Source: Tubulanus polymorphus
Lineage: Eukaryota; Animalia; Nemertea
Direction: 5' to 3'
Assembly (NCBI RefSeq): GCF_964204645.1
Contig: NC_134025.1
Coordinates: 22,672,299 to 22,736,298 of the forward strand
DNA: 64,000 bases
The notes under the pieces were generated by a model that ran no database searches, was not told the origin of the DNA, and saw only the letters and a program-made list of their open reading frames with translations. Numbering within the stretch: the stretch's first letter is position 1; the number at the start of each line of letters is the position of its first letter. Positions 43,101 to 64,000 of this stretch are shown in pieces. A program made the translations under genes and the position numbers.

Positions 43101-43896
43101 TCTCCACTTATTGGAAATATATCTTGCAGTTTTCTACAAGCACAGCAAATGTTACCTTAACTCCCGGTTAACGAGAGTACACAAGCTTTATAAACTAGTG
43201 ATTCTAAATCTTGATCTTATGTTCTGTAATGTATGAATGAATATATTTCAGTGCCATTGATCAGTTAGGAGGTGTTGCGAAGAAAGCGAGATACGATGAA
43301 ACTCAACAGCAACAACAGCAACAGCAGTATAACTACGGTTGGGAAGGTTATTCTGTAAGTATCACAACTTCTCTTCGAAAACTGATCAAGTAAAAATTAC
43401 GTAGTATTTTTGAAACATGTGGAAAATCTACACAACTACCGGTACATGGGGCTAGAAAAAGTCTGTATTACCTATATCCAGTGTGAAATAATTAATATCC
43501 TTTATGGATGAAATTCTAGGTTTGTAATAAGCAAAAAATCATTATGTCTGAGGTCGTTAAGAGAGATTCTACTATATATGTATGTGGTCCTAATCTCAAT
43601 GCATTCGGGTCATTGCTTTCGATCATAAGTTCTCGTGGGAAGGTTGAATATTGAAAATGCCTTGATTGTGAAACATTTCTCTGATTCAAAAGTTTTCAAG
43701 TTATGAGAAAACTTCATTGTCTTCACTGTCTTTATTTTAGATGTATTTCTTACCGACTGTATTATAGTACTCAGGATTACTAGGAGAATTATCTTTTGTT
43801 GATATATATCTAACCGGGATGATCTTTTTGTTTCAGGGCTATAACAACAACTATAACAACTACTACAACTCACAGTACTATCAGCAATCTACTTAA
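34129..43896 (+). CDS. PRPF39: Pre-mRNA-processing factor 39 (HAT repeats) with N-terminal SAP domain
   Basis: [21 protein letters not shown]; [13 protein letters not shown]; [10 protein letters not shown]; [10 protein letters not shown]; [26 protein letters not shown]; [24 protein letters not shown]; [12 protein letters not shown]; Q/Y/N-rich tail ending at TAA 43896. Exon ~35377-35553 encodes a SAP motif. Confidence 0.93.
34339..34817. mobile_element. MITE with ~55-bp TIRs and an internal degenerate CCCTAA-like tract
   Basis: CGCAGTGGATATTTTACCGTATACGG.. / ..CCGTATACGGTTAAATATCCACTTCG, in PRPF39 intron 1. Confidence 0.65.
36294..36621. mobile_element. Harbinger-like MITE with a nested Tc1/mariner-like MITE (~36372-36546)
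   Basis: Outer ends GGGGCCGTCCGTAAAGTA / TACTTTATGGACGTCCCC. Inner ends GGATCCTCGTTACAAC / GTTGTTACGAGGTTCTCC. Confidence 0.55.
38644..38841. mobile_element. PIF/Harbinger-like MITE
   Basis: GGGCCGGTTCCATAGT / ACTATGGAACCGGCCC TIRs with a CAG TSD. Confidence 0.75.
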
Positions 43897-45513
43897 AATG
43901 ACAAGATCAAGAAAGCGATGCGACCTTCTAAGTGGATCGGTTAAAAAAACTAATAATATCAGATGCTGTGGACTATTATGGATCAAAAACTTTTTACCGC
44001 GGTTCATAGGAATAAATGGCAAACTTCATTCGTATGGACTCGACTCTCTCTCCTGAGCATGGATTTGGAATATACAGATCGTAATAAGCGTTTGTTTTCT
44101 GCGGCGCGTTGTTTATAATATAATGTTACTTAAGTGTGTATTTATGTAATCCGCATATGTCTAGATAGCTTGACCATTCCAGTAAGTCCATAGCTAACTC
44201 ATAAAGAATAGAAAAAAATCAAAAAATGGTTGTGGGACTTTGTTGAAAATCTAAGTAGTAGCCGATTCATGTTTAAAAAAATTGATAGAAGTTCATTATG
44301 TCCATTTGTTCAATATTGAATATTGGATAAATACATTTTGGTTTTTGGTTGAGGCTTCATCTCTGTGTGCAGGGTGTTCTTTCTCGATATGCTTAGGAAG
44401 TCTAGAATTTGTCCAAGGCAAAAATATGTTGAGTCTAATGATTTTGACAATATATATGCGAAGAAGTCGCGAGTCTGAAAGTGTCCCAAGATTTAACACT
44501 TGCGTTTTAAAGCCTATGCCGTTATAATTCATTCCATTTGTGAACCTTCAGTGTCGCTAAGTGTAGCAAAACACTACATTTTGAAGAAAGGTCATAAAAA
44601 GTGGCACGTTGTCTCTAAAGTAGGCAGTCAGGCTATGAATCTTTGTATTTAAAATCGTTGTTACATATACCAACAGATCGATCGCGTCTACCAAGATTTC
44701 TCAGTGCAGCATCTGTCATTTATACGGTAAATACTGTACCGGTAATTAAAAATCTAAAATGGAATACATGTCGCACATGTACCGATTCCGGGTCTCTGTA
44801 AATTCATCAGAACCATCCATTTGTATATCCTTAGTGTATTATATTTTTCATTTAATGAGCACATGATTCACGTAGAAATATATTGTGCACTCCGTATTAT
44901 TGACATTTTAAGTGTTTACAGGAAAATGCGATGAGAAAAACTGTTTAGGTCATAAAAATTAGTGTAAATAACGCTGCTGGGAATAAATGAACATTTTCTT
45001 ATTCAAAAAGTCATCACTTTTAGTAGTTGTTTTACTTGTTTGGTGGTTGATATGAATTCCAAGTTTATTGCCTTTTAGCACATTTTGGGGCTATTGCATT
45101 TCGTTTTTAAGATGCTTTGATGGATTGTCATGATATTCAATGTATCTACCCTCTACATATTTGGAGCAAAAAACTAGCTAAACTAAAGGGTGGCTGTTGT
45201 TCATTGAAATCACTATACAAGATGCTTCTTTCAAACTTGATACCTAGAGCCCAACATCATGAAAAGTTGGGCCATTCTGACATACGCCATGCCTGCAACT
45301 AATCCTTTGATTGAAAATGCATCTATTCAATTTCATCTATTTCTCTGTGGGCTTCTGTTTTGTGATCTCCAGCCCTTCCATGGTACTACTGGGGCAAGCG
45401 GCACGAGTATTTCATTAAGCTGATTCCTGGAGACGCCTCCATCTTTGAACGGCAACTTCGTCCCTAGCGATCGTTCTTAACGACAATAGATTTTGATAGA
45501 GGTGTAAATTTAT

Positions 45514-48493
45514 TCATTGAAAAATTTCCCTTTTAGGGAATACAGACTTGAGAATCTTTGTAGACAACGAGGTATTTGAAGGCAGAAACCTTGCCCAGCG
45601 TTGCAATCGATCTAACGCTGGTACGTGCTTTTTAATAAACGCCTTTTGTATTTCATTCCATTGATTTTCTGTTAATGCACTGTCTTCCGAGTCCACGGTT
45701 TGATCGTTATAGTCCACTCCGGTTATATAACAATTCGGTAATAGTTCCTCCAACAATAAACAGATCATAGCTTTATTCTGAACACCTGGTAGATTCGCAA
45801 CATTCAACTGTCTTAAATGTCTGAAATGGTAATCGGAGAGCGAAATGAGAAAACGGCTGAGAGCATGATTTTTCTCTTATTTTCATTTGGGGCGATTCTA
45901 CACTACTGATTCTTTAAGAACTTCCAGCTTTCAGTAAATGAATTTGATTTAAAACTTGAATTTCGTAAACCGTTGCCGGTCAATTACCGTATTTTACTTA
46001 AGGTGGCACCCATAAAAACATGCCTTACGATGTACGGTTTGAAATACATTAAAAAATCTATCAAAATACTAGACCCGGCCTTGCTCACTGGTCAACTTTG
46101 AATATACATGGACGGTCTTTCAATTTAAACAAAAGAGTTTGAATTGAAAAGAATTTCAATTTCTCTGATTCTCAAAAGGTACAATGGAACCTCATTAATT
46201 CAAATCTTGAAGGCGAAAGTGAAATGGTCGTATTAAGTTGGTTTCGTATTATCCCAAGCTTGATTGATATACCCGTAGATATTTTAGCTGGAAATCACGG
46301 GTTTTGTCTTTGACAGAATTGTACTACCGGTAATGAAGTTCAACTGTATTTGGTCAACCGAGCCCTAAATGTAACAGAGTCTTAATTCATAAACTACTGT
46401 AGATATTTTTTAAACATACCTGAGCCGATGTAAACAAGATAGTCCTCGATCAGTTATATGAGGACAGCCACTTAGATCCAGCGATACTAATGTATCCTTA
46501 CACATAGCTGTTATTTTATCTATACACCAGTCATCTATGTGCCAGCATTCACTGATGTTCAAGTATTTCAAATGATTTAGGTTACCTGAAATGAATAGAC
46601 TCATATTTTTCACATCTTAAAAACCTTCAATGTAGTTATTATTTAGAGGGAGAGCTTAGAGTAGAACTGCTGATCAAGAAACTCGGCCTATGAATTGATG
46701 AGAACAGTTTGCCTAAAACCAATGACCTCGGAATGTTTTTTTTCTAAATATGAGATATTAGAGGGTGACTATTACGGTAAGCAGATGAACACTTTTTCAA
46801 TAAGACACAAGTACGACACAAGAATTCTCTGTAAGATCTGGATAATTAGGGGTTCAGGGACACCTATCCCCTCCGGAAAGTGGTCCAAAATCCTCGAAAG
46901 TGTGACGATTTCGATATTCAACGCCCCTTGGTGAACATATAAACAAATGAATACTGGTAACTTAATAACCTTGCTATAATCATAGAAACATCGAATATAC
47001 AAATTTTTCGGAAATATTCTATGAATCTACCAGTACTGTAGTAGTGAAACATCGCCGGCAGACTGTCTGTCAATCAAAATTACACAGGCAAGCAATTCTG
47101 AGTGAGAGTTGGATTCAACTTCCGATATGCGGCTAGGTCGATGGTTTTCTGCCATATTTGAGTCAATATGGGCCACTTTCTGATGTTTTATTGACACTAT
47201 CGTACTGATTGATAGCTCTGGTAGCTGTTGGTGAATTGATATGTAATTTACGATGATGCATTCCAAATTATGATCCAAGTTAGTAAGAAAATGCACTATG
47301 TTTTCTCAAATGGACGTATGAAATCTGACTTAATCGTAGATTTTGTACTGGCACTATCTTATACCCAAATTTACCAAGACGACCGACATCCGAGTTAGCT
47401 ACTGCAAAATAATCGTGATATAAATTTGGGTTCTGGTCCAACAAAGCTTCAGGAGTATCACGAGCAAAAACGAAATATGTTGAACTTACTTAAATTATCG
47501 ATTCCAATATTCATAAGCACAGTGCGAGAAGCGTCGATAGCTTCTAGTTTCATACTGTCCACTTTGTGCGTCGGTAAAAATGATTCATCATTCGTTTGTT
47601 GAAAATACCACCTCGCGCTGCCTTCAAACGCAACTCGACCCCCTCGAAAACAGATAAAATGCGCGCACGCCAAATCAGGGCCGAGCATTTCATGACGCTC
47701 CGGGCGAAATCTTCAAATGAAAATGCAAGAAATTCACATAAGACATAATCACATTCATCTCTATTCATCTATATTTTTTAACTTGAATCCCTCAGTCAAT
47801 CCCCTACATTTAACTAGAATGAATTAATGTAACTTGCATATTTACCCTAGCTCACAGTCATAGTAATTCAATTTCTATAGTCCTCTTTTCATGGTGATAA
47901 AATGTTCAACAGTGCTTTCCATTGATATTATTACCCCCAGCCTATAGGCCTAACTCCAACCATTTATCAGTCATCTCTCCCTAGGGAGAAGTAATATCTG
48001 AGCAGCTGCTGGGTGCTCAGGAGTCATCAATCAGGCCAGCAGGTACCCATTTACTCCTGGGTGAAGAGAGGCAATAAGGATAAGTGTCGTCTTGACCAGG
48101 GACACAATGAACAGGGTTTGGACCACGACCTGGCATCACAAGAGTCGAACGTTCTAACCACACGCCCACACTGCTCACTCAAGAATGAATGCTGATTCAT
48201 CCAATTCTATCAAAGGCCTAGACTTACATTTGATCGCCCATCAACATTTGTTCTTGTCGTTTATTCAGAGTTCTTCTCAGCGTATCGGGTTCAAGATCAA
48301 TTTGTTTCTGCATCATAGTCACTAGATCTCTCGGTACTCCGGTGGGTTCATTGCTAGGAGGATTTTCTCGATCGAAACCGCTGAGTTGTTGACGAATGCG
48401 CGATGTCGTGGAGAAACTACTCGAGGAATCTTGCCAAATGATTCTCCTCGCGAAACTGTGTTTGCAAGAATCCGTCAATACACGACGCATCAT
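45514..48493 (-). CDS. DMAC2: Distal membrane-arm assembly component 2 (ATP5SL), copy 1
   Basis: Exons 48493-48228, 47710-47490, 46585-46420 and 45820-45514. Mitochondrial presequence, GPDLACAHFI..GGRV.F, LEAIDAS, ECWHIDDWC, LDLSGCPHITDRGLSCLH and LLEELLPNC.ITGVDY. Confidence 0.88.
47926..48176 (-). mobile_element. tRNA-derived SINE (family of 12381-12628)
   Basis: Reverse complement aligns with the 12381 copy (GACACTTATCC..TGCCTCTC..AGGAGTAAATG.GTACC..GATGACTCCTGAGCAC..GGGAGAGATGACTGATA). Confidence 0.75.
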
Positions 48494-48796
48494 TATGACC
48501 TGGGGAAAAATACAGAGAATTTCACACTTGATAGTTATTTCGAATAATAAGACGTTTAGGGTTTTTAAGGCATTCGTAGTGCTCAGAGCTCAGAGCTGGG
48601 GGGCCTTACAACTGCTCAGTTGCTCTGGCCGTATAAAGGTCATTTCTGAAACTCTTCCGAAATTTGATGGAGTTAACCAATATAGACAACATCAATATGC
48701 TGATATATGGTTAATGACCAAAATTATTAGTCTACTAATTTAGACCAATCCAAGACCGGCTTCTTGTACAACAGCATTAAGATAGGCTAACTGTGG

Positions 48797-49205
<409 letters not shown>

Positions 49206-51591
49206 TCGTGTTTAATAAGTTAGTATTTTATAATAGTAGGTAGAAGTTCTAAATGTCGAGTAGTCACACAGCAGGTAACTGTAAGGCATCAAACTGCATA
49301 TTTCTTGCGCGCAAAATACTTAAAAGTACATCTTTAATTGATACATACATATACATACATACACTTCCTTATTAGTTAACTCAACAGCAACAACAGCAAC
49401 AGCAGTATAACTACGGTTGGGAAGGTTATTCTGTAAGTATCACAACTTCTCTTCGAAAACTGATCAAGTAAAAATTACGTAGTATTTTTGAAACATGTGG
49501 AAAATCTACACAACTACCGGTACATGGGGCTAGAAAAAGTCTGTATTACCTATATCCAGTGTGAAATAATTAATATCCTTTATGGATGAAATTCTAGGTT
49601 TGTAATAAGCAAAAAATCATTATGTCTGAGGTCGTTAAGAGAGATTCTACTATATATGTATGTGGTCCTAATCTCAATGCATTCGGGTCATTGCTTTCGA
49701 TCATAAGTTCTCGTGGGAAGGTTGAATATTGAAAATGCCTTGATTGTGAAACATTTCTCTGATTCAAAAGTTTTCAAGTTATGAGAAAACTTCATTGTCT
49801 TCACTGTCTTTATTTTAGATGTATTTCTTACCCACTGTATTATAGTACTCAGGATTACTAGGAGAATTATCTTTTGTTGATATATATCTAACCGGGATGA
49901 TCTTTTTGTTTCAGGGCTATAACAACAACTATAACAACTACTACAACTCACAGTACTATCAGCAATCTACTTAAAATGACAAGATCAAGAAAGCGATGCG
50001 ACCTTCTAAGTGGATCGGTTAAAAAAACTAATAATATCAGATGCTGTGGACTATTATGGATCAAAAACTTTTTACCGCGGTTCATAGGAATAAATGGCAA
50101 ACTTCATTCGTATGGACTCGACTCTCTCTCCTGAGCATGGATTTGGAATATACAGATCGTAATAAGCGTTTGTTTTCTGCGGCGCGTTGTTTATAATATA
50201 ATGTTACTTAAGTGTGTATTTATGTAATCCGCATATGTCTAGATAGCTTGACCATTCCAGTAAGTCCATAGCTAACTCATAAAGAATAGAAAAAAATCAA
50301 AAAATGGTTGTGGGACTTTGTTGAAAATCTAAGTAGTAGCCGATTCATGTTTAAAAAAATTGATAGAAGTTCATTATGTCCATTTGTTCAATATTGAATA
50401 TTGGATAAATACATTTTGGTTTTTGGTTGAGGCTTCATCTCTGTGTGCAGGGTGTTCTTTCTCGATATGCTTAGGAAGTCTAGAATTTGTCCAAGGCAAA
50501 AATATGTTGAGTCTAATGATTTTGACAATATATATGCGAAGAAGTCGCGAGTCTGAAAGTGTCCCAAGATTTAACACTTGCGTTTTAAAGCCTATGCCGT
50601 TATAATTCATTCCATTTGTGAACCTTCAGTGTCGCTAAGTGTAGCAAAACACTACATTCTGAAGAAAGGTCATAAAAAGTGGTACGTTGTCTCTAAAGTA
50701 GGCAGTCAGGCTATGAATCTTTGTATTTAAAATCGTTGTTACATATACCAACAGATCGATCGCGTCTACCAAGATTTCTCAGTGCAGCATCTGTCATTTA
50801 TACGGTAAATACTGTACCGGTAATTAAAAATCTAAAATGGAATACATGTCGCACATGTACCGATTCCGGGTCTCTGTAAATTCATCAGAACCATCCATTT
50901 GTATATCCTTAGTGTATTATATTTTTCATTTAATGAGCACATGATTCACGTAGAAATATATTGTGCACTCTGTATTATTGACATTTTAAGTGTTTACAGG
51001 AAAATGCGATGAGAAAAACTGTTTAGGTCATAAAAATTAGTGTAAATAACGCTGCTGGGAATAAATGAACATTTTCTTATTCAAAAAGTCATCACTTTTA
51101 GTAGTTGTTTTACTTGTTTGGTGGTTGATATGAATTCCAAGTTTATTGCCTTTTAGCACATTTTGGGGCTATTGCATTTCGTTTTTAAGATGCTTTGATG
51201 GATTGTCATGATATTCAATGTATCTACCCTCTACATATTTGGAGCAAAAAACTAGCTAAACTAAAGGGTGGCTGTTGTTCATTGAAATCACTATACAAGA
51301 TGCTTCTTTCAAACTTGATACCTAGAGCCCAACATCATGAAAAGTTGGGCCATTCTGACATACGCCATGCCTGCAACTAATCCTTTGATTGAAAATGCAT
51401 CTATTCAATTTCATCTATTTCTCTGTGGGCTTCTGTTTTGTGATCTCCAGCCCTTCCATGGTACTACTGGGGCAAGCGGCACGAGTATTTCATTAAGCTG
51501 ATTCCTGGAGACGCCTCCATCTTTGAACGGCAACTTCGTCCCTAGCGATCGTTCTTAACAACAATACATTTTGATAGAGGTGTAAATTTAT

Positions 51592-54571
51592 TCATTGAAA
51601 AATTTCCCTTTTAGGGAATACAGACTTGAGAATCTTTGTAGACAACGAGGTATTTGAAGGCAGAAACCTTGCCCAGCGTTGCAATCGATCTAACGCTGGT
51701 ACGTGCTTTTTAATAAACGCCTTTTGTATTTCATTCCATTGATTTTCTGTTAATGCACTGTCTTCCGAGTCCACGGTTTGATCGTTATAGTCCACTCCGG
51801 TTATATAACAATTCGGTAATAGTTCCTCCAACAATAAACAGATCATAGCTTTATTCTGAACACCTGGTAGATTCGCAACATTCAACTGTCTTAAATGTCT
51901 GAAATGGTAATCGGAGAGCGAAATGAGAAAACGGCTGAGAGCATGATTTTTCTCTTATTTTCATTTGGGGCGATTCTACACTACTGATTCTTTAAGAACT
52001 TCCAGCTTTCAGTAAATGAATTTGATTTAAAACTTGAATTTCGTAAACCGTTGCCGGTCAATTACCGTATTTTACTTAAGGTGGCACCCATAAAAACATG
52101 CCTTACGATGTACGGTTTGAAATACATTAAAAAATCTATCAAAATACTAGACCCGGCCTTGCTCACTGGTCAACTTTGAATATACATGGACGGTCTTTCA
52201 ATTTAAACAAAAGAGTTTGAATTGAAAAGAATTTCAATTTCTCTGATTCTCAAAAGGTACAATGGAACCTCATTAATTCAAATCTTGAAGGCGAAAGTGA
52301 AATGGTCGTATTAAGTTGGTTTCGTATTATCCCAAGCTTGATTGATATACCCGTAGATATTTTAGCTGGAAATCACGGGTTTTGTCTTTGACAGAATTGT
52401 ACTACCGGTAATGAAGTTCAACTGTATTTGGTCAACCGAGCCCTAAATGTAACAGAGTCTTAATTCATAAACTACTGTAGATATTTTTTAAACATACCTG
52501 AGCCGATGTAAACAAGATAGTCCTCGATCAGTTATATGAGGACAGCCACTTAGATCCAGCGATACTAATGTATCCTTACACATAGCTGTTATTTTATCTA
52601 TACACCAGTCATCTATGTGCCAGCATTCACTGATGTTCAAGTATTTCAAATGATTTAGGTTACCTGAAATGAATAGACTCATATTTTTCACATCTTAAAA
52701 ACCTTCAATGTAGTTATTATTTAGAGGGAGAGCTTAGAGTAGAACTGCTGATCAAGAAACTCGGCCTATGAATTGATGAGAACAGTTTGCCTAAAACCAA
52801 TGACCTCGGAATGTTTTTTTTCTAAATATGAGATATTAGAGGGTGACTATTACGGTAAGCAGATGAACACTTTTTCAATAAGACACAAGTACGACACAAG
52901 AATTCTCTGTAAGATCTGGATAATTAGGGGTTCAGGGACACCTATCCCCTCCGGAAAGTGGTCCAAAATCCTCGAAAGTGTGACGATTTCGATATTCAAC
53001 GCCCCTTGGTGAACATATAAACAAATGAATACTGGTAACTTAATAACCTTGCTATAATCATAGAAACATCGAATATACAAATTTTTCGGAAATATTCTAT
53101 GAATCTACCAGTACTGTAGTAGTGAAACATCGCCGGCAGACTGTCTGTCAATCAAAATTACACAGGCAAGCAATTCTGAGTGAGAGTTGGATTCAACTTC
53201 CGATATGCGGCTAGGTCGATGGTTTTCTGCCATATTTGAGTCAATATGGGCCACTTTCTGATGTTTTATTGACACTATCGTACTGATTGATAGCTCTGGT
53301 AGCTGTTGGTGAATTGATATGTAATTTACGATGATGCATTCCAAATTATGATCCAAGTTAGTAAGAAAATGCACTATGTTTTCTCAAATGGACGTATGAA
53401 ATCTGACTTAATCGTAGATTTTGTACTGGCACTATCTTATACCCAAATTTACCAAGACGACCGACATCCGAGTTAGCTACTGCAAAATAATCGTGATATA
53501 AATTTGGGTTCTGGTCCAACAAAGCTTCAGGAGTATCACGAGCAAAAACGAAATATGTTGAACTTACTTAAATTATCGATTCCAATATTCATAAGCACAG
53601 TGCGAGAAGCGTCGATAGCTTCTAGTTTCATACTGTCCACTTTGTGCGTCGGTAAAAATGATTCATCATTCGTTTGTTGAAAATACCACCTCGCGCTGCC
53701 TTCAAACGCAACTCGACCCCCTCGAAAACAGATAAAATGCGCGCACGCCAAATCAGGGCCGAGCATTTCATGACGCTCCGGGCGAAATCTTCAAATGAAA
53801 ATGCAAGAAATTCACATAAGACATAATCACATTCATCTCTATTCATCTATATTTTTTAACTTGAATCCCTCAGTCAATCCCCTACATTTAACTAGAATGA
53901 ATTAATGTAACTTGCATATTTACCCTAGCTCACAGTCATAGTAATTCAATTTCTATAGTCCTCTTTTCATGGTGATAAAATGTTCAACAGTGCTTTCCAT
54001 TGATATTATTACCCCCAGCCTATAGGCCTAACTCCAACCATTTATCAGTCATCTCTCCCTAGGGAGAAGTAATATCTGAGCAGCTGCTGGGTGCTCAGGA
54101 GTCATCAATCAGGCCAGCAGGTACCCATTTACTCCTGGGTGAAGAGAGGCAATAAGGATAAGTGTCGTCTTGACCAGGGACACAATGAACAGGGTTTGGA
54201 CCACGACCTGGCATCACAAGAGTCGAACGTTCTAACCACACGCCCACACTGCTCACTCAAGAATGAATGCTGATTCATCCAATTCTATCAAAGGCCTAGA
54301 CTTACATTTGATCGCCCATCAACATTTGTTCTTGTCGTTTATTCAGAGTTCTTCTCAGCGTATCGGGTTCAAGATCAATTTGTTTCTGCATCATAGTCAC
54401 TAGATCTCTCGGTACTCCGGTGGGTTCATTGCTAGGAGGATTTTCTCGATCGAAACCGCTGAGTTGTTGACGAATGCGCGATGTCGTGGAGAAACTACTC
54501 GAGGAATCTTGCCAAATGATTCTCCTCGCGAAACTGTGTTTGCAAGAATCCGTCAATACACGACGCATCAT
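51592..54571 (-). CDS. DMAC2: Distal membrane-arm assembly component 2 (ATP5SL), copy 2
   Basis: Same exons as copy 1 shifted by 6078 bp; translations identical in the ORF track. Confidence 0.88.
54004..54254 (-). mobile_element. tRNA-derived SINE (duplicated copy)
   Basis: Copy of 47926-48176 inside the duplication. Confidence 0.75.
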
Positions 54572-54922
54572 TATGACCTGGGGAAAAATACAGAGAATTT
54601 CACACTTGATAGTTATTTCGAATAATAAGACGTTTAGGGTTTTTAAGGCATTCGTAGTGCTCAGAGCTCAGAGCTGGGGGGCCTTAAAACTGCTCAGTTG
54701 CTCTGGCCGTATAAAGGTCATTTCTGAAACTCTTCCGAAATTTGATGGAGTTAACCAATATAGACAACATCAATATGCTGATATATGGTTAATGACCAAA
54801 ATTATTAGTCTACTAATTTAGACCAATCCAAGACCGGCTTCTTGTACAACAGCATTAAGATAGGCTAACTGTGGCACAGGGGCTCGTCACGATAGCTGGG
54901 GGTCCAAAATCAAAGATTTGAC

Positions 54923-54924
<2 letters not shown>

Positions 54925-55010
<86 letters not shown>
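54925..55010. repeat. (AT)n microsatellite
   Basis: About 86 bp; shorter counterpart of 48847-49030. Confidence 0.98.
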
Positions 55011-55016
<6 letters not shown>

Positions 55017-55444: not shown

Positions 55445-58400
55445 GTCTGTCTGCAGAGTTTCCAGAACCTGTCATGTCAGGGCCCAAGACCTGACATGAC
55501 AGGTGGGACCTCAGGTGACAGGTCGATTCGCTAAAATGAAAATTGTTATGACTGAACCGATGATAGGCGATTAGAAGATATGATAGGCGCGGATTTACAA
55601 CAAATCATAGCCGATAAGAACACAAAGAACATATCGTAGTGCTTTCTGAATATATTATTCAAAAATAAAAAACAAACTATGATGTGTTATAAATTCATTT
55701 AAGAATTTATGTTTGTCCGTTTATAAAAAGTTGTTGAACTATATCGCCTTATAATAATAAAGATGGAATGATTGTGAATTATTGGAGAACATTGAACGAA
55801 TTGTTTACAACTAATTTATTTTTTTGTAACACGAAACATAAAAATATCAAGATCAGGCAAAATGATACCAGTAGTGCCTTATGTAATCATAATCAGTATT
55901 AATAACAATCATTATACTCATTAAGATTAGGCCCTATATTATTATATATTATTATTAATTACTCGCAATATAATTAATTAACCAAGTGTACATACAATTT
56001 AAAAACATTTCGGTCCAAGCTTATAAGTTGACATAGATAAATTAGACATAACACTGATTAATTAGTGAGGCCTCACACGGCAACGCGCGCCATTTTGCAG
56101 AGCTTCGGGACCTGAGGTGACAGGTCTGCATTAAAACTGATGAAATGAAGGAAAACTTTAATTTTTATGGTCTCTTTATAGCAATGAATATAATATAAAT
56201 TGCTAACCATGGATATAGTTAATCTTAAGTTACTATAAAACAATAATTTTGAAGCGAGACCTCACACGGCAGCTCGCGCCATTTTGCAGAGCTTCTCGGG
56301 ACCTGTGGTGACAGGTCTGCACTAAAACTGATGAAATGGAAAAAACTTTACTTTTTATAACCTTTATATAGTAATAAGTATAATAAATTGCTAACCATTG
56401 ATAGAGTTAATCTTAAGTTACCATAAAACAATAATTTTGAAGCGAGACCTCACACGGCAACGCGCGCCATTTTGCAGAGGTTCTCGAGACCTGTGGTGAC
56501 AGGTCTGCATTTAAACTGATGAAATGGGAAAAACTTCTCTTTTTATGGTATCTTTATAGTAATAAATATAATATAGATTGCTAACCATGGATATAGTTAA
56601 TCTTAAGTTATTATAAAACAATAATTTTGAAGCGAGACCTCACACGGCAGCTCGCGCCATTTTGCAGAGCTTCTCGGGACCTGAGGTGACAGGTCTGCAT
56701 TAAAACTGATGAAATGAAGGAAAACTTTAATTTTTATGGTCTCTTTATAGTAAAGAGTATAATATAAATTGGTAACCATGGATAGAATTAATCTTAGGTT
56801 ACTATAAAAGAATAATTTTGAAGCGAGACCTCACACGGCAGCTCGTGCCATTTTGCAGAGCTTCTCGAGACCTGTGGTGACAGGTCTGCGTTAAAACTGA
56901 TGAAATGTAAAAAACTTCACTTTTTATGGTATCTTTATAGTAATGAATATAATATAAATTGCTAACCATGGATATAGGTAATCTTAAGTTACTATAAAAC
57001 AATAATTATGAAGCGAGACCTCACACGGCAGCTCGCGCCATTTTGCAGAGTCGTCGGGACCTGTGGTGACAGGTCTGCATTAAAACTGATGAAATGGAAA
57101 AAACTTCACTTTTTATGGTATCTTTATAGTAATGAATATAATATAAATTGCTAACCATGGATATAGGTAATCTTAAGTTACTATAAAACAATAATTTTGA
57201 AGCGAGACCTCACACGGCAGCTCGCGCCATTTTGCAGAGCTTCAAGGGACCTGTGGTGACAGGTCTGCGTTAAAACTGATGAAATGAAGGAAAACTTTAA
57301 TTTTTATGGTCTCTTTATAGTAAAGAGTATAATATAGATTGCTAAACATGGATAGAATTAATCTTAAGTTACTATAAAACAATAATTATGAAGCGAGACC
57401 TCACACGGCAGCTCGCGCCATTTTGCAGAGCTTCTCGGGACCTGTGGTGACAGGTCTGCGTTAAAACTGATGAAATGAAGGAAAACTTTAATTTTTATGG
57501 TCTCTTTATAGCAATGAATATAATATAAATTGCTAACCATGGATATAGGTAATCTTAAGTTACTATAAAACAATAATTATGAAGCGAGACCTCACACGGC
57601 AGCTCGCGCCATTTTGCAGAGCTTCTCGGGACCTGTGGTGACAGGTCTGCATTAAAACTGATGAAATGAAGGAAAACTTTAATTTTTATGGTCTCTATTA
57701 TAGTAAAGAGTATAATATAGATTGCTAAACATGGACATAGTTAATCTTAAGTTACTATAAAACAATAATTTTGAAGCGAGACCTCACACGGCAGCTCGCG
57801 CCATTTTGCAGAGTCTTCGGGACCTGTGGTGACAGGTCTGCATTAAAACTGATGAAATGAAGGAAAACTTTAATTTTCATGGTCTCTTTATAGTAAAGAG
57901 TATAATATAGATTGCTAAACATGGATATAGTTAATCTTAAGTTACTATAAAACAATAATTATGAAGCGAGACCTCACACGGCAGCTCGCGCCATTTTGCA
58001 GAGCTTCTCGGGGCCTGTGGTGACAGGTCTGCATTAAAACTGATGAAATGGAAAAAACTTCACTTTTTATGGTATCTTTATAGTAATGAATATAATATAA
58101 ATTGCTAACCATGGATATAGGTAATCTTAAGTTACTATAAAACAATAATTTTGAAGCGAGACCTCACACGGCAGCTCGCGCCATTTTGCAGAGCTTCTCG
58201 GGACCTGTGGTGACAGGTCTGCATTAAAACTGATGAAATGAAGGAAAACTTTATTTTTTATGGTCTCTTTATAGTAAAGAGTATAATATAAATTGCTAAC
58301 CATGGATATAGGTAATCTTAAGTTACTATAAAACAATAATTATGAAGTGAGACCTCACACGGCAGCTCGCGCCATTTTGCAGAGCTTCTCGGGACCTGAG

Positions 58401-59053
58401 GTGACAGGTCTGCATTAAAACTGGTATAAATTGAAAAACAACTTCATGCTTTAAATTGATGAGTAGATTTAAAATCAGTCTCAATAAAATCAGTTTCTAT
58501 ATTGCATTCGGCTCTTTTACATGTACATCATAAAGACAATGAATATAAATAGTGAGACTTCATGACTGATGACAGTGAGGAGTGTTGCCGAACTGTGATA
58601 TAGTGAGCAGATAATTTTCAGTGTCTTATTGCGGAAACGAAATATCAAGACCTCGATTCATCTGGCGAAAATATTCTCTTATAATGTGCTCTTACTTCTA
58701 CATTAATTAATTCATCTACTAAATTAAAACTTATTTTTTTCCCTTAAATACAGAAATAAGTCATAGTTTACACATAAATATTTTCTTCTTATAAATCAAC
58801 CTTTCAAATGAATTATTTGTCAGAACATTTTCCTTATCGTTATTGTTGAATCATTTTCGATATTAACGACGGGTCAGAATATTCATTCAACTCAAAATGT
58901 TCTTCCATTCGTCTAGCACGTCTAGATATTTCGCTGTTTCGTCAAATATTGTCATGAGTTTGGGTTTTTTCGGGACCTGACATGACAGGTCAGACCTGTC
59001 ATGTCAGGTCTTAAGACCTGACATGACAGGTTCTGGAAACTCTGCAGACAGAC
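55445..59053. mobile_element. Non-autonomous TIR element containing a satellite array
   Basis: TIR GTCTGTCTGCAGAGTTTCCAGAACCTGTCATGTCAGG at 55445 and its reverse complement ending at 59053. No transposase ORF and no clear TSD. Confidence 0.85.
56066..58422. repeat. Tandem satellite, ~190-bp unit, about 12.4 copies
   Basis: GAGACCTCACACGGCAGCTCGCGCCATTTTGCAGAG recurs 13 times at about 190-bp spacing. Confidence 0.97.
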
Positions 59054-59262
59054 ATCAATCGATTTTTGACGTCTCTAACCACGGTACATTGTTGTAAGTA
59101 AGTAAGCGCTGTTTCTATCGGTCAATACCATTTCTGAAGCATCATTAAAAGCGAATTGAATACGTATTTATATCATCCTCTCGAAACAACTGAAATTACG
59201 CGAGATTGAAAAACTCGAGAGGCCTTTTCAAAACACGCTGGTACTCGCTTGTCAAAATCAAA

Positions 59263-61491
59263 ATGGCGTCGAGACTTCTTGCTCGACGTAGCTGCTGCTG
59301 CTGGTGGAAAGTTGTTCGTTCTTCAAATATTCTCAGTTTCTCTTCGTTTGTTACGTGTTCGGGCAGTGGCAGAAAAGTCCTTGAACGAACACGTCATGCT
59401 GCCAGCGTTGACAAATTCAACCGCAGACCATTGTGGGGATGGTTAAACTCGATTTTCAATAAGTTAGTGTTCTGAAAATGCTAGATTTTTTAATTGGCCA
59501 TGTGTAAAAAGTCTTAAAGCTTGCCTAGCCGTAGTTCCCAAACAACGTTGTAGGGGAACCCGTACATCTTCTGGAGTTCACACTTAGTTATAGCCCCTCC
59601 ACCAAAACCTTCATGTCCATGATGATAATTGAGAATTATTTGAAATGACCAATCAATACTTGTTGGTACCTATACTTTCTGGCGCATTCTCTCCAGCTGA
59701 AATTGTTTCGAATGTCCCTAGATTATTAGAATGATATTAACTAAACTTATAGTTATGTTTCTTAGATACAGGCCTACGTCTAATCTAACCTTGAACCATA
59801 CCTAAATACTACCCTAATATGGAATTGGACCAGATCTGAAGACTTTTGATTATATCATTTCCAGATTTGACAAAGATCGCATGAAAGAAGTAGGACCTGA
59901 TAGAGCTTGTGCTGAATGGTTATTACGGTGTGGCGCGCATGTGCGAAGGTTAAATTCAGAACGATTTCAAACCGATTACAACAGCTTACCGGCCGGAAAC
60001 GTTGCGAGTTATAAAATCGAGGAAATAAATGCTGACAATGCGGCGGTTATGAGCGTTGGTTTCCCATATTTAGGTAAGTAATGATCCTACGCCCAGAATT
60101 GATGAAAGTCTATGAAGATGGCAAGGTGATTCTGATATGAAGCAAAATTTGGCGTATGATGTTGGGTTCAAAGTGTGCTTGCTGGAGAATTGAACTTCAC
60201 TAACAGGATGGCCACTGACTGGAAAACTCAGGGAATCAGAAAAATCAGGGATAACTCAGGGGATTTGACACATTTTACCGAACACCTGGAAAACTCAGGG
60301 AATTTGGACAATGCTATTGAATGACAATTTATTTCATTATCAGTACATGATGCAGTGAAAAATGAATGGATTGTTAGATTTCAAACCTAGAAATTTTGTG
60401 TTGTCACTTGGGAAAATCAGGGAAAACAAGGATTTGTAAATGAGTGGAAAGTGGAACTGACTAATGAACTAAGATTGCAATTCAGATTATTAGAATTCTA
60501 AGCCAGTTTTAGGTAGTATGTTCATGACTTAAACAAGTGTTGTCTGTTTGCTTGAAAATGTTTTGTGACTATATATTTGCAGAAGGATTGAATCATTTGA
60601 AAAAGATCAGATTCTATAACTGCGTCTATTTAGACGACGAAGCTTTGATTGAGCTTTCACGAGTGAAGCATACTTTGGAAGAGTTAGAGGTCGGTTCTTG
60701 CGGAGTAATAACCGATAAGGGCATAGCTAGCATTGCCGAATTAGAGTAAGTATGTTTGCCTTTTGAAAATTGAAACTCCTTTCCCCACACTGAAATCACT
60801 TCATGATGATCTACTCCGATATCAAATTTTGGTTTGTTAGAGAAACGACTCCTTGATTCCTTAAAAATGCTTTCAAAACCGAAAATACGTTTCAAGGTGC
60901 TTGAATCACCGAATTAGAAACTGAGTTTAGTAGTGTATAAGGTAAATATTTGCTCACAAAACCACTAAATTAATGTATTGGTTAGGTTTTCGTCATGAAA
61001 AATTGCCCTCAAACTTGGCGCCATACCCTCAAAAACCCCTCAAATTTCATATTGATGGTCCTGTAGGAACCCTGTTAATGGTATGTTGAGATAAACAGTA
61101 CCAATTTAGGAGTCTACGGTAATTGGAAACCGGTATGACATTTTCTATAGAAATTTGAAATTTTCTCCTTTGAATAGAACTCCTTGAAAACTCCTTATAT
61201 CCAAAGAATGACTGATCTGGAGGGACCCTGAGTAATTAACATTTAATGATTTCTCCCTCCAAATGGTTTTAACCTTTCGACCTCTTTTGTAGCTTTGATG
61301 CCAGGTTAAGCAAGCTCTATGAATAACCGGCAGTATTTTTTGCTTCTTTCAGGCTGTTAAAGGTTTTGAAGCTGTACGACCTTCCAGCTGTAAGAGACAA
61401 ACGTGGCTGTTTTGAAATTCTAAAGAAAGCTCTTCCGCAGTGTGACATTCAATTTCCCGACGCTGTTCCTTCAACTACGAAATCAACTTAA
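59263..61491 (+). CDS. DMAC2L: ATP synthase subunit s / factor B (ATP5S)
   Basis: Exons 59263-59462, 59865-60073, 60583-60745 and 61353-61491. Presequence, then LWGWLNSIFNK..VGPDRACAEWLLRCGA..DYNSLP..YKIEEI.A; SCG.ITDKGI; LYDLPAV..ALPQC. Confidence 0.93.
60204..60459. mobile_element. Degenerate hAT-like MITE with repeated AAACTCAGGG motifs
   Basis: CAGGATGGCCACT start and several (GG)AAAA(C/A)TCAGGG subterminal repeats in DMAC2L intron 2. Confidence 0.4.
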
Positions 61492-61497
61492 TCGTTC

Positions 61498-62277
61498 ATG
61501 ATGATTATAGAACGAGTCAACGACATACAAGACAATCTAAACCAGAAATTCACGGGCTCGGGGTTCGAATTTCACCCATTTCTAATCGGCTGGTACCACG
61601 AGAAAGTTAGCAAATCTTTTCGCGTAAACTACCCGGAAGATACCGTCGCGTTCGTGGTCGTCAGCACTCCGGACATGTTCGAAAAATCGTTTCTACCGTT
61701 CATCACGCGTAAGGATTGTAATACGGATATACGCGATCCGCTCGATCAGTGCATCGCGGCGACGTTCAACGACATCAAAGACGATTTTCCCGACTACACG
61801 ATCGAGACGATTCACGACTTCGAACGACATCACAGCAATCGGCCGAAATTTTTGATGCAAACGGCGAGCCACATCAGCGGCGCCGCCTACTACTACCAAC
61901 AAAAAGATATCGGAAATACCGATCTATTAACGGGGAAAAAACGATTATGCGGGGTATGCATACATCCGAAGTACGGCGGATGGTTCGCGTTGCGAGGGGT
62001 GATAATATTCGGTAATTTACAATGCGAAGATTTACCCCGGCGTGAAGCAGTCGATGTCGTCGTAGGCGACGAATTGAGATTGGAATTACTTGAACGTTTC
62101 AATTATCGCTGGCAGGATTGGACGTTCAGGGATATCATATCGGTGAAATCGAGGTATTCCGAGGCTCAAAAGCTTTATTTCGCCACTAAGCCGAAAGATC
62201 GCAAAGAGCTTATCGCCACAAACCATTTATTCGATAGCTTTAATGACTGTAAAGAGGAAAAAGAAATAGACGGTTGA
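61498..62277 (+). CDS. MMACHC: Cyanocobalamin reductase / alkylcobalamin dealkylase (CblC), intronless
   Basis: Single 259-aa ORF with HPF.IGWY, STPDMFE, DPLDQC, RPKFLMQTASHISGAAYYYQ, GVCIHPKYGGWFALRGV, FNY.WQDW.FRD and YSEAQK.YF.T.P. Confidence 0.95.
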   Translation: MMIIERVNDIQDNLNQKFTGSGFEFHPFLIGWYHEKVSKSFRVNYPEDTVAFVVVSTPDMFEKSFLPFITRKDCNTDIRDPLDQCIAATFNDIKDDFPDYTIETIHDFERHHSNRPKFLMQTASHISGAAYYYQQKDIGNTDLLTGKKRLCGVCIHPKYGGWFALRGVIIFGNLQCEDLPRREAVDVVVGDELRLELLERFNYRWQDWTFRDIISVKSRYSEAQKLYFATKPKDRKELIATNHLFDSFNDCKEEKEIDG

Positions 62278-64000
62278 TCTGTGCTCTTCAAATCGTATTA
62301 TCATAGATCTCTTATCAGTACGGAATATGTGCTATAATTACACCATTCATTTTACCTTTCTACCTTGGTATCTGGTTATTGACTCACTATATGCTGTTAA
62401 TTTAGTTGAAAATAAAATAGCTTCATCTGACCGATAGCTAATAAATTTCATCTTTGTACATGTAGTCTGTTATCGATCCGCAAATGGTTGACAGTCTTGA
62501 CATTGAAGGATAAAGGCTAGCCTCTAGGTTGACTTGCAATGTCGTGGTGTGATCGGTTCTGATCTGATATCTTGAGAGGAAAGCAATTTTCATTATTTGG
62601 AGTTGTAAGAAAGCCAAGCCCATTGGCTTACACTTCATGTAATTCATACATTTACTTTTGCAAACTATGGAAATTATATTTCCACGATGTGCAGTAACAG
62701 AAGAGAATTATAGAAGATCCGAGTGCCCTAGAAACGGAAAACAGTTGTCAAACATCAAACATGAAATGCAAGTCAAACGGGTTTGGCTCCGATATTATGG
62801 GTATTCATTCAATCATTCACATACTTAAAGCTAAACTTGCGCTTACTTAAGGGCAGACCTATATATAATGCTTCTTGTCATTTGTGTAAAGCGTCTGGAG
62901 GGGTTTAGTAGTCAATCAAGTTGTAAATTGGTTTATCTTATAGATCAGACTCGCATACTTCTTTATACTTGGCCTGACATTACCCGCAGAATCGAAGTGT
63001 TGAACAAGGAGAAAGTCGACATGTAACATTCAAATAATATCTGTTTTTATTTTTCTTTTACTATAATTTACATGAACCATTTTAATAATTGTTATGTCTA
63101 CCTCTGGGAGACAGCAGTGTCTAAAGAAAGGAAGAAAATGAAATATGTACATGGGGTGGTGCATAAAAAAGATGAACCTCTGCAGTTAAATATCTGTGGT
63201 TCTGCTGAGGTATGTCACATCAAAATTACGAATTACGGTTACTTGTAATAATGACTATATCAATAACGGAATCTATCGTCTATCTAGCCAGGAGTATGTA
63301 TTAAGAAATGCTCGTAAATGAAATATTGAAGGTATGATACCGATTGGTTAAATCGAAAACAGGCACCGCTAATGGAGCTATAGATGTAAAAGCAGAAAAT
63401 CCTAATTACAATCTATTCAAAATATAATCACATGAATTTAAAGCACAAAAATTACATATCTATATGAAGCGAATTGTTTGATTAATGCAAGAACCGGTAA
63501 AATTCAATGATTCCCCTTTAAAACGGTTAGCGATTTTAACTGATTGCAAATGTTCTTGATGATGCAATGTGGATGAATGTATTATGCTCTTAAAATACAG
63601 CGCCAAACTTTAAGGCCACCGAAACAATAACAATGTACAGCAGTTTTGATTAAACATTTCGCAAACTCAAAAACTAAACACCCATACCTTCTCTAACTTA
63701 ATCTTTACCATGTACCGTACATGGTAGACTGGAGTTTATGATCTTATCAACATTATGTGGAATTTGTACCCATATTGTTACAACCTTGAGCTCCATGAGT
63801 TAATCTTTAGTGTCATATTTCACTTCAAGGTGTAACATTTAAAAAAAAATAAGTCTCAATGGACGAGACCTAATTGCCCCTACCATATGAAATTAGATTG
63901 TTAACCAGGATTTCTTTGACGATATAGTTTTAACATCTCTTATCATGTGCCATCTAGTCTTATAAATACAAATAATACGCAAGTGGAGGTCACAACAAGT

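What the first reader, a model, noticed from the sequence alone, without database searches (positions are those of the whole stretch)
61353..62277. MMACHC starts in frame 6 nt after the DMAC2L stop: candidate animal bicistronic / shared-exon unit
Seen: the last DMAC2L exon (acceptor 61352) ends ..ACT TAA (61489-61491) TCG TTC ATG ATG, so the complete, intact MMACHC ORF begins 6 nt later in the same frame. There is no room for a poly(A) site or promoter between the two ORFs; AATAAA signals appear after MMACHC (~62411, ~62440). The 145 nt from the acceptor to the MMACHC ATG contain no AUG, while upstream DMAC2L exons do, which argues against simple leaky scanning. Established: vertebrate MMACHC is a separate multi-exon gene for a cytosolic B12-processing enzyme; DMAC2L is a mitochondrial LRR protein. 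Inference: MMACHC is expressed by (a) termination-reinitiation on one mRNA, (b) use of the DMAC2L last exon as a 5' UTR through an internal promoter or SL trans-splicing at 61353, or (c) readthrough giving a mitochondrially targeted DMAC2L-CblC fusion. Option (c) is less likely because UAA-U is a poor readthrough context.
Basis: partly seen in the sequence, partly recalled or inferred. Interest (0 to 1): 0.88.

Follow-up and report, generated by a model that had tools for sequence, protein, structure and literature searches.

The report
Ribbon-worm mRNA carrying two unrelated genes
In a ribbon worm, the intron-less gene for the vitamin-B12 enzyme MMACHC begins six bases after the stop codon of the unrelated mitochondrial gene DMAC2L and spliced transcript contigs run through both; it is likely a copied-in (retroposed) gene that ribosomes likely translate by restarting on the shared message, a new case of a known kind of two-gene mRNA.

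Summary
A four-exon DMAC2L/ATP5S gene (236 aa) ends at TAA 61489-61491; an intact single-exon MMACHC (259 aa) starts at 61498. Spliced contigs from two studies run from DMAC2L exons across an unchanged TAA-spacer into MMACHC, so this is neither misassembly nor base error. The genome is a ribbon worm's (exon identical to a Tubulanus polymorphus record). MMACHC lacks three introns seen in many relatives, which points to a retrocopy captured in DMAC2L's last exon. DMAC2L was not found beside MMACHC in 79 loci or fused to it in 233 proteins; no other nemertean could be tested. Animal dicistronic mRNAs with unrelated partners, 5-9 nt spacers and intron-less second ORFs are known from fly and human, so this is a new member of a known kind. 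The unusual part is the long first ORF with a strong start and eight further AUGs. How MMACHC is translated was not shown: low-level reinitiation on the shared mRNA is my best guess, a shorter transcript starting inside DMAC2L exons the main rival; readthrough and trans-splicing are unlikely. Two additions: the AUG-free run is 330 nt, and the mRNA may end near 62290.

The parts
59258..59462 (+). DMAC2L exon 1 (ATG 59263, context A at -3, G at +4; Arg-rich N-terminus with no acidic residue before position 41, by inspection like a mitochondrial presequence); the spliced contig begins at 59258
59865..60073 (+). DMAC2L exon 2; holds 6 of the 8 AUGs that lie between the two start codons, including in-frame M73 and the family-conserved M127
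60583..60745 (+). DMAC2L exon 3 (LRR), no AUG in any frame
61353..61491 (+). Coding part of the shared last exon; ends in TAA 61489-61491
61492..61497 (+). 6-nt spacer between stop and first AUG
   Evidence: unchanged in X1, X2, X3
61498..62277 (+). Intron-less, full-length MMACHC/CblC ORF (259 aa); second AUG at 61501 has the better context (A at -3)
60052..61497 (+). Genomic span of the 330-nt AUG-free run of the spliced mRNA (last 22 nt of exon 2, exon 3, exon 4 to the MMACHC start)
62265..62290 (+). Candidate 3' end: AATAGA at 62265 (a variant poly(A) signal, recalled) and the end of contig X3 at 62289, just before a genomic AAA; inferred, weak
62411..62445 (+). Two canonical AATAAA hexamers (62411, 62440); not reached by either spliced contig

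Best explanation
A spliced mRNA contig carries the complete DMAC2L ORF and, six bases after its stop in the same last exon, an intact intron-less MMACHC ORF that likely arrived as a retrocopy and is likely translated, at low level, by ribosomes that reinitiate on this shared mRNA. Shown: the layout, the splicing, the unchanged stop, the intactness of both ORFs, the missing introns. Inferred: (1) a processed MMACHC cDNA landed just behind the DMAC2L stop and borrowed its promoter; having no introns, it leaves the DMAC2L stop in the last exon, so the message would escape junction-dependent decay (rule recalled); (2) plain leaky scanning is poor because the DMAC2L start is strong and eight AUGs follow; (3) some 40S subunits stay on after terminating, most simply at the DMAC2L TAA and possibly also at the short out-of-frame ORFs that all end by 60052, and start again at the AUG-AUG pair 6-9 nt past the stop, with no competing AUG for 330 nt upstream; (4) the products are two separate proteins, mitochondrial factor B and cytosolic CblC.
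For: X2 contig 59258-61934 with three GT..AG joints and 0 other letters; X3 contig 59959-62289 with two joints, spanning the whole MMACHC ORF. Only loose end at 61353 in either run is exon 3; X2 and X3 show no cover of 61240-61352. No AATAAA/ATTAAA between 60030 and 62410. Both ORFs end and start where free-standing homologues do. 56 of 79 MMACHC loci show a break at one or more of three recurring intron sites and 22 of 79 at all three; the window's copy has none. X1 depth is flat over MMACHC, so no second copy at 90% identity or more; cluster of one member. Variants in X3: 3 of 5 synonymous, 2 missense (I to V, T to A), none disruptive. Ordinary branch length in a quick tree (0.83, median 0.64). 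AUG-free run 330 nt, P 0.01-0.02. Precedent: intron-less downstream ORFs in 50% of 14 human bicistronic transcripts and a retroposition model (PMC13303939); stop-start within 20 nt in viral long-ORF reinitiation (PMC10275272).
Against: Contigs are assembled from short words and do not show single molecules; the runs are not on record as RNA (inferred from splicing). No translation data at all. Reinitiation after a long ORF usually needs a helper element; the recalled TURBS core motif is absent and the junction is not unusually structured. A 330-nt AUG-free run is longer than local reinitiation should need and fits a shorter transcript as well. In fly, in-frame AUGs in ORF1 are reported to attenuate ORF2 (PMC3372440 citing Wall 2005), and only 45 of 159 dicistronic loci are exclusively dicistronic. 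Intron loss in place plus later rearrangement cannot be told from retroposition: 18 of 79 loci also lack all three introns (many probably transcripts), and no genome was held to look for a parent copy. No conservation of the pairing was found.
Confidence: 0.45

Rival explanations
1. Shared exons, separate messages: DMAC2L mRNA merely carries MMACHC in its 3' UTR, while the enzyme is made from a shorter or differently spliced transcript (start site inside exons 2-4, or an isoform that drops the AUG-rich exon 2) whose leader is the AUG-free exons 3-4.
For: The AUG-free run covers almost exactly exons 3-4; 6 of 8 intervening AUGs lie in exon 2. In fly, alternative promoters or splice variants commonly give a monocistronic 3' member, also at 5-8 nt spacers. 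A start site inside an exon is invisible to contigs.
Against: No spliced-run contig covers the end of intron 3 and only exon 3 joins exon 4; intron 2 next to exon 3 has under 1% of exon depth in X2; introns 2 and 3 are CpG-poor (o/e 0.20, 0.57) unlike the DMAC2L upstream region (1.18). No exon-skipping joint among those shown (32 rows of that table were not shown).
Confidence: 0.33
2. Stop-codon readthrough makes a mitochondrially targeted DMAC2L-CblC fusion of about 498 aa that is the functional product.
For: Same frame, no stop in the spacer; a small hairpin starts right after the stop (-5.6 kcal/mol).
Against: Frame match is 1 in 3 by chance; TAA followed by T, whereas insect readthrough stops are mostly TGA (PMC5100048); hairpin z -1.86 and no signal in longer windows; 0 of 233 MMACHC proteins carry DMAC2L sequence; MMACHC keeps its own AUG pair at the usual N-terminus.
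Confidence: 0.06
3. MMACHC is an untranslated or barely translated passenger in the DMAC2L 3' UTR, with the enzyme supplied by another gene or not needed.
For: No easy route for ribosomes; no translation data; the rest of the genome could not be searched.
Against: Full-length intact ORF about 50-57% identical to other invertebrates with no near-identical parent, ordinary branch length, variants mostly synonymous (3 of 5).
Confidence: 0.06
4. Operon-like resolution: a spliced leader is trans-spliced at 61353, giving a capped MMACHC mRNA with exon 4 as leader.
For: Strong acceptor at 61353 (10 of 11 pyrimidines) and AUG-free exon 4.
Against: Only exon 3 is seen joined there in 2 of 2 spliced runs (weak, since short tips can be lost in assembly). 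One search found no paper reporting spliced leaders in nemerteans. It would not explain the AUG-free exon 3.
Confidence: 0.05

Closest known systems
Drosophila dicistronic loci (FlyBase, PMC4528330): e.g. Gint3/CG42306 5 nt, mRpL53/CG33155 8 nt, Lasp/CG43954 9 nt, Snapin 18 nt
   Same: Two unrelated protein ORFs on one processed mRNA with a very short stop-to-start spacer.
   Different: Different phylum and genes; here ORF1 is 236 codons with two internal in-frame AUGs, which fly work links to poor ORF2 output. I did not compare ORF1 lengths across the fly list.
Human 'gene symbiosis' bicistrons (STREMI-SLC35A4, MIURF-MIEF1, PYURF-PIGY; PMC13303939)
   Same: Independently evolved genes, upstream partner mitochondrial, intron-less downstream ORF, retroposition as proposed origin.
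   Different: There the upstream ORF is a microprotein (STREMI 103 aa) acting as a uORF; here it is a full multi-exon gene, and long-read, footprint and conservation evidence is lacking.
Viral termination-reinitiation (calicivirus and influenza B TURBS; PMC10275272)
   Same: Long ORF1 with stop and restart within 20 nt.
   Different: Here in frame and non-overlapping, cellular, and without the recalled TURBS core motif.
Green-algal bicistrons by leaky scanning (PMC11892635)
   Same: Short spacer; fewer AUGs ahead of ORF2.
   Different: Algal ORF1s have weak starts and are short; here the start is strong and eight AUGs follow.

Membership tests
Animal dicistronic mRNA | Two non-overlapping, full-length conserved ORFs | tested here: met
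Animal dicistronic mRNA | A processed (spliced) transcript spans both ORFs | tested here: met
   Spliced contigs in 2 studies cross the junction; contig-level, not single molecules
Animal dicistronic mRNA | Both proteins are translated from that same mRNA | not testable with these tools
   No Ribo-seq, proteomics or reporters
Retroposition-derived bicistron (gene symbiosis) | Downstream ORF intron-less while relatives have introns | tested here: met
   22 of 79 loci broken at all three sites, 56 of 79 at one or more; window none
Retroposition-derived bicistron (gene symbiosis) | Partners are separate genes in other lineages | tested here: met
   0 of 79 loci with DMAC2L, 33 with 200 nt or more upstream; Priapulus genes on scaffolds of different length
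Retroposition-derived bicistron (gene symbiosis) | Predominantly polycistronic in long reads; pairing conserved across species | not testable with these tools
   No long reads; no second nemertean MMACHC locus found
TURBS-type termination-reinitiation | Stop and start within about 20 nt | tested here: met
   6 and 9 nt
TURBS-type termination-reinitiation | 18S-complementary core motif upstream of the stop (motif recalled) | tested here: not met
   No match in the spliced mRNA up to the junction
Programmed stop-codon readthrough | Leaky stop context or 3' stimulator structure | tested here: not met
   TAA-T; folding not beyond shuffles
SL trans-spliced operon | Leader joined at an acceptor ahead of the downstream ORF | tested here: inconclusive
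   None seen at 61353, but contigs can drop short tips; no acceptor in the 6-nt spacer
MMACHC/CblC (PF16690) | Full-length domain above the curated cut-off | tested here: met
   299.7 bits vs 27, positions 1-216 of 216
DMAC2L/ATP5S (factor B) | Whole-length likeness to ATP synthase subunit s | tested here: met
   E 1.2e-39 to 3dze; top named hits are subunit s

The most novel reading that the evidence does not exclude
The worm's only CblC enzyme is made solely by ribosomes reinitiating after a 236-codon, multi-exon cellular ORF with no TURBS element: a natural cellular case of long-ORF termination-reinitiation that ties B12 processing to a mitochondrial gene. A bolder extension: MMACHC has repeatedly been parked behind mitochondrial-protein genes in invertebrates (DnaJ in L012, LYR in L013/L014).
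Probability: 0.25. Interest if true: 0.8.

Novelty: new member of a known kind. Interest (0 to 1): 0.5.

Why it matters
A review states that the spacing rules for reinitiation after long ORFs in eukaryotic mRNAs are unknown (PMC10275272). This locus is a compact natural test: a 1.5-kb message, two conserved housekeeping proteins, a 6-nt spacer, a strong first start. It would also extend retroposition-born bicistrons from vertebrates and flies to a spiralian, and it shows how such units mislead annotation: the public DMAC2L model starts at M73 and lacks exon 1, which a spliced contig includes. If MMACHC comes from its own shorter transcript, it is an ordinary overlapping-gene curiosity.

Tried and rejected
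No whole genome was held, so a parent MMACHC copy and the genome-wide frequency of such pairs were not examined. No run is on record as RNA; X6 laid nothing and X4/X5 do not cover the junction (their pieces end near GATC sites): no evidence either way. Contig depth as a test for extra MMACHC-only transcripts: X2 is higher over MMACHC (allele pairs about 480-535 vs contig mean 353), X3 is higher in exon 2 (16.2 vs 10.9); opposite directions and not a valid measure, so not used. Fusion search: the one longer hit is MMACHC plus PF00248; P0113 and other N-extended hits have no DMAC2L. The LRR hit upstream in L071 is an F-box/LRR gene (SKP2-like by my reading), not DMAC2L. A Lineus MMACHC record for a neighbour test was not found among the 20 proteins looked up. 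Out-of-frame AUGs over the whole DMAC2L ORF are not depleted (6 vs 8.0 expected, P 0.22). High CpG in MMACHC (o/e 1.89) is not distinctive: other window ORFs reach 1.7-1.8. In-frame splice routes skipping the stop exist on paper but have weak acceptors and no contig support. Rfam: nothing at the junction; five sub-threshold miRNA-model hits on a short repeat at 58968-59046. The tree is the quick version, the careful search did not finish. Earlier findings of the scan: four look-ups, none returned. No structure or complex prediction was run.

Full report
Observation. The ORF is a full MMACHC (human CblC chains E about 1e-65) and starts where homologues start (35 sequences). The upstream gene has four exons giving 236 aa and is ATP synthase subunit s / DMAC2L. 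Exon 2 is identical to XP_074662219.1 of Tubulanus polymorphus, on a contig of the same length as that holding the window's MMACHC, so this is a ribbon worm.

Is the junction real and transcribed? Six runs were laid. X2 gives one contig from 59258 to 61934 with three GT..AG joints and no other letters; X3, from another study and sample, gives one from 59959 to 62289 with two joints. X1 is unspliced and crosses the junction in one piece but may be the assembly's own sample. X4 and X5 do not cover the junction, X6 laid nothing. None lists a difference at the stop or spacer. None is on record as RNA; I infer RNA for X2 and X3 from splicing. Contigs do not prove single molecules, but DMAC2L's stop lies in this exon and no canonical poly(A) signal occurs before 62411, so its mRNA must run into MMACHC. 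The only loose end at 61353 is exon 3, and neither spliced run covers 61240-61352. Both contigs stop short of the AATAAA pair; X3 ends 19 nt after an AATAGA and just before a genomic AAA, a weak hint that the message ends near 62290.

Origin. Among 79 MMACHC loci from metagenomes, 56 show a break at one or more of three recurring sites (profile positions near 27, 94, 144), 22 at all three, 18 at none, and 5 could not be scored fully; many loci are redundant and many intron-less ones are probably transcripts. The window's copy has none. A DMAC2L profile built without the Tubulanus protein finds the window's exon 4 at E 3.5e-11 but no DMAC2L in any of the 79 loci, 33 of which have 200 nt or more upstream of the MMACHC start. 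None of 233 MMACHC proteins carries DMAC2L sequence. The Priapulus genes lie on scaffolds of different length. The pairing therefore looks lineage-restricted; no other nemertean could be tested. The simplest origin is a processed copy inserted behind the DMAC2L stop (inference). The copy looks functional: intact, no second copy at 90% identity in X1, ordinary branch length (quick tree), 3 of 5 variants synonymous.

Mechanism. The DMAC2L start has A at -3 and G at +4, and eight AUGs lie between the two starts: two in frame (M73, M127) and six opening out-of-frame ORFs of 4-32 codons that all end by 60052. Plain leaky scanning is thus unlikely. After M127, which is present in all 18 DMAC2L proteins checked, there is no AUG for 330 nt (P 0.010-0.018 in five randomisation schemes; measured after seeing it), and 15 of the 17 homologues checked have a later Met. 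There is no recalled TURBS core motif and no unusual structure. I commit to low-level reinitiation on the shared mRNA (0.45), mainly at the TAA and possibly after the short ORFs. The main rival (0.33) is a shorter or differently spliced transcript using exons 3-4 as an AUG-free leader, which contigs cannot exclude. Readthrough (0.06), untranslated passenger (0.06) and trans-splicing (0.05) are poorly supported. No step of translation was shown here.

Comparison with what is known. FlyBase lists 159 dicistronic pairs, 45 exclusively dicistronic with spacers of -34 to 319 nt (PMC4528330, passages); search hits in its File S1 show unrelated pairs at 5, 8, 9 and 18 nt (I saw matching rows only, and one supplementary file was not searched). 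PMC13303939 (abstract and two results sections) reports 14 human bicistronic transcripts, half with intron-less downstream ORFs, and proposes retroposition. PMC10275272 (passages and one section) says long-ORF reinitiation usually needs extra elements and that spacing rules in cellular mRNAs are unknown. PMC11892635, PMC3372440, PMC5100048 and PMC2481426 were seen as passages; Wall 2005 only as cited. Three searches for this gene pair listed only papers that look unrelated by title and abstract start; one for spliced leaders in nemerteans gave one paper, where the name occurs only in a reference title. The library lacks most subscription papers. Recalled, from no call: the junction-dependent decay rule, AATAGA as a variant signal, the TURBS motif, tip loss in assemblies, and the names DMAC2 and SKP2 used for side observations.

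Verdict. A real, transcribed two-gene unit; a new member of a known kind, apparently undescribed for this pair. It is more interesting than most because the first ORF is long and AUG-rich, but the mechanism is open and conservation was not shown. Interest 0.5.

Noticed in passing
window 59263-59462 vs record XP_074662219.1: The public DMAC2L model is 164 aa and starts at M73, omitting exon 1 with the presequence-like N-terminus; contig X2 splices exon 1 to exon 2. Likely an annotation error.
   Followed up: partly
L012:29-2054: Intron-less contig with a complete DnaJ ORF (mitochondrial-type N-terminus by inspection) ending 55 nt before MMACHC; spacer has a tiny uORF and an acceptor-like site; MMACHC groups with a copepod protein in a quick tree. 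Possible operon or dicistron.
   Followed up: partly
L014:5-420 and L013:1-260: LYR-family ORF ends about 160 nt before MMACHC on the same strand in two near-identical contigs.
   Followed up: partly
L025:3-639: Unidentified ORF ends 84 nt before MMACHC, with an acceptor-like pyrimidine run in the spacer.
   Followed up: partly
L022:4170-7472: MTHFR ORF ends 285 nt before an intron-less MMACHC on the same strand: a folate/B12 gene pair.
   Followed up: no
window 43300-48933 and 49378-55011 (minus strand): A 5.6-kb tandem duplication at 99.9% identity holding a DMAC2L-family paralogue (likely DMAC2/ATP5SL, name recalled), head-to-head with DMAC2L; recent duplication or assembly artefact.
   Followed up: partly
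window 56067-58446: 191-bp tandem array, about 12 copies, 91% matches, between the paralogue and the DMAC2L start.
   Followed up: no
window 63031-63400: Contigs of both spliced runs begin at 63031-63041, with AATAAA on the minus strand at 63046-63051: probably the 3' end of a convergent neighbour.
   Followed up: partly
window 59699-59880: Low-depth X2 contig (10.8 vs 353) from intron 1 into exon 2: retained intron or a minor alternative start.
   Followed up: no
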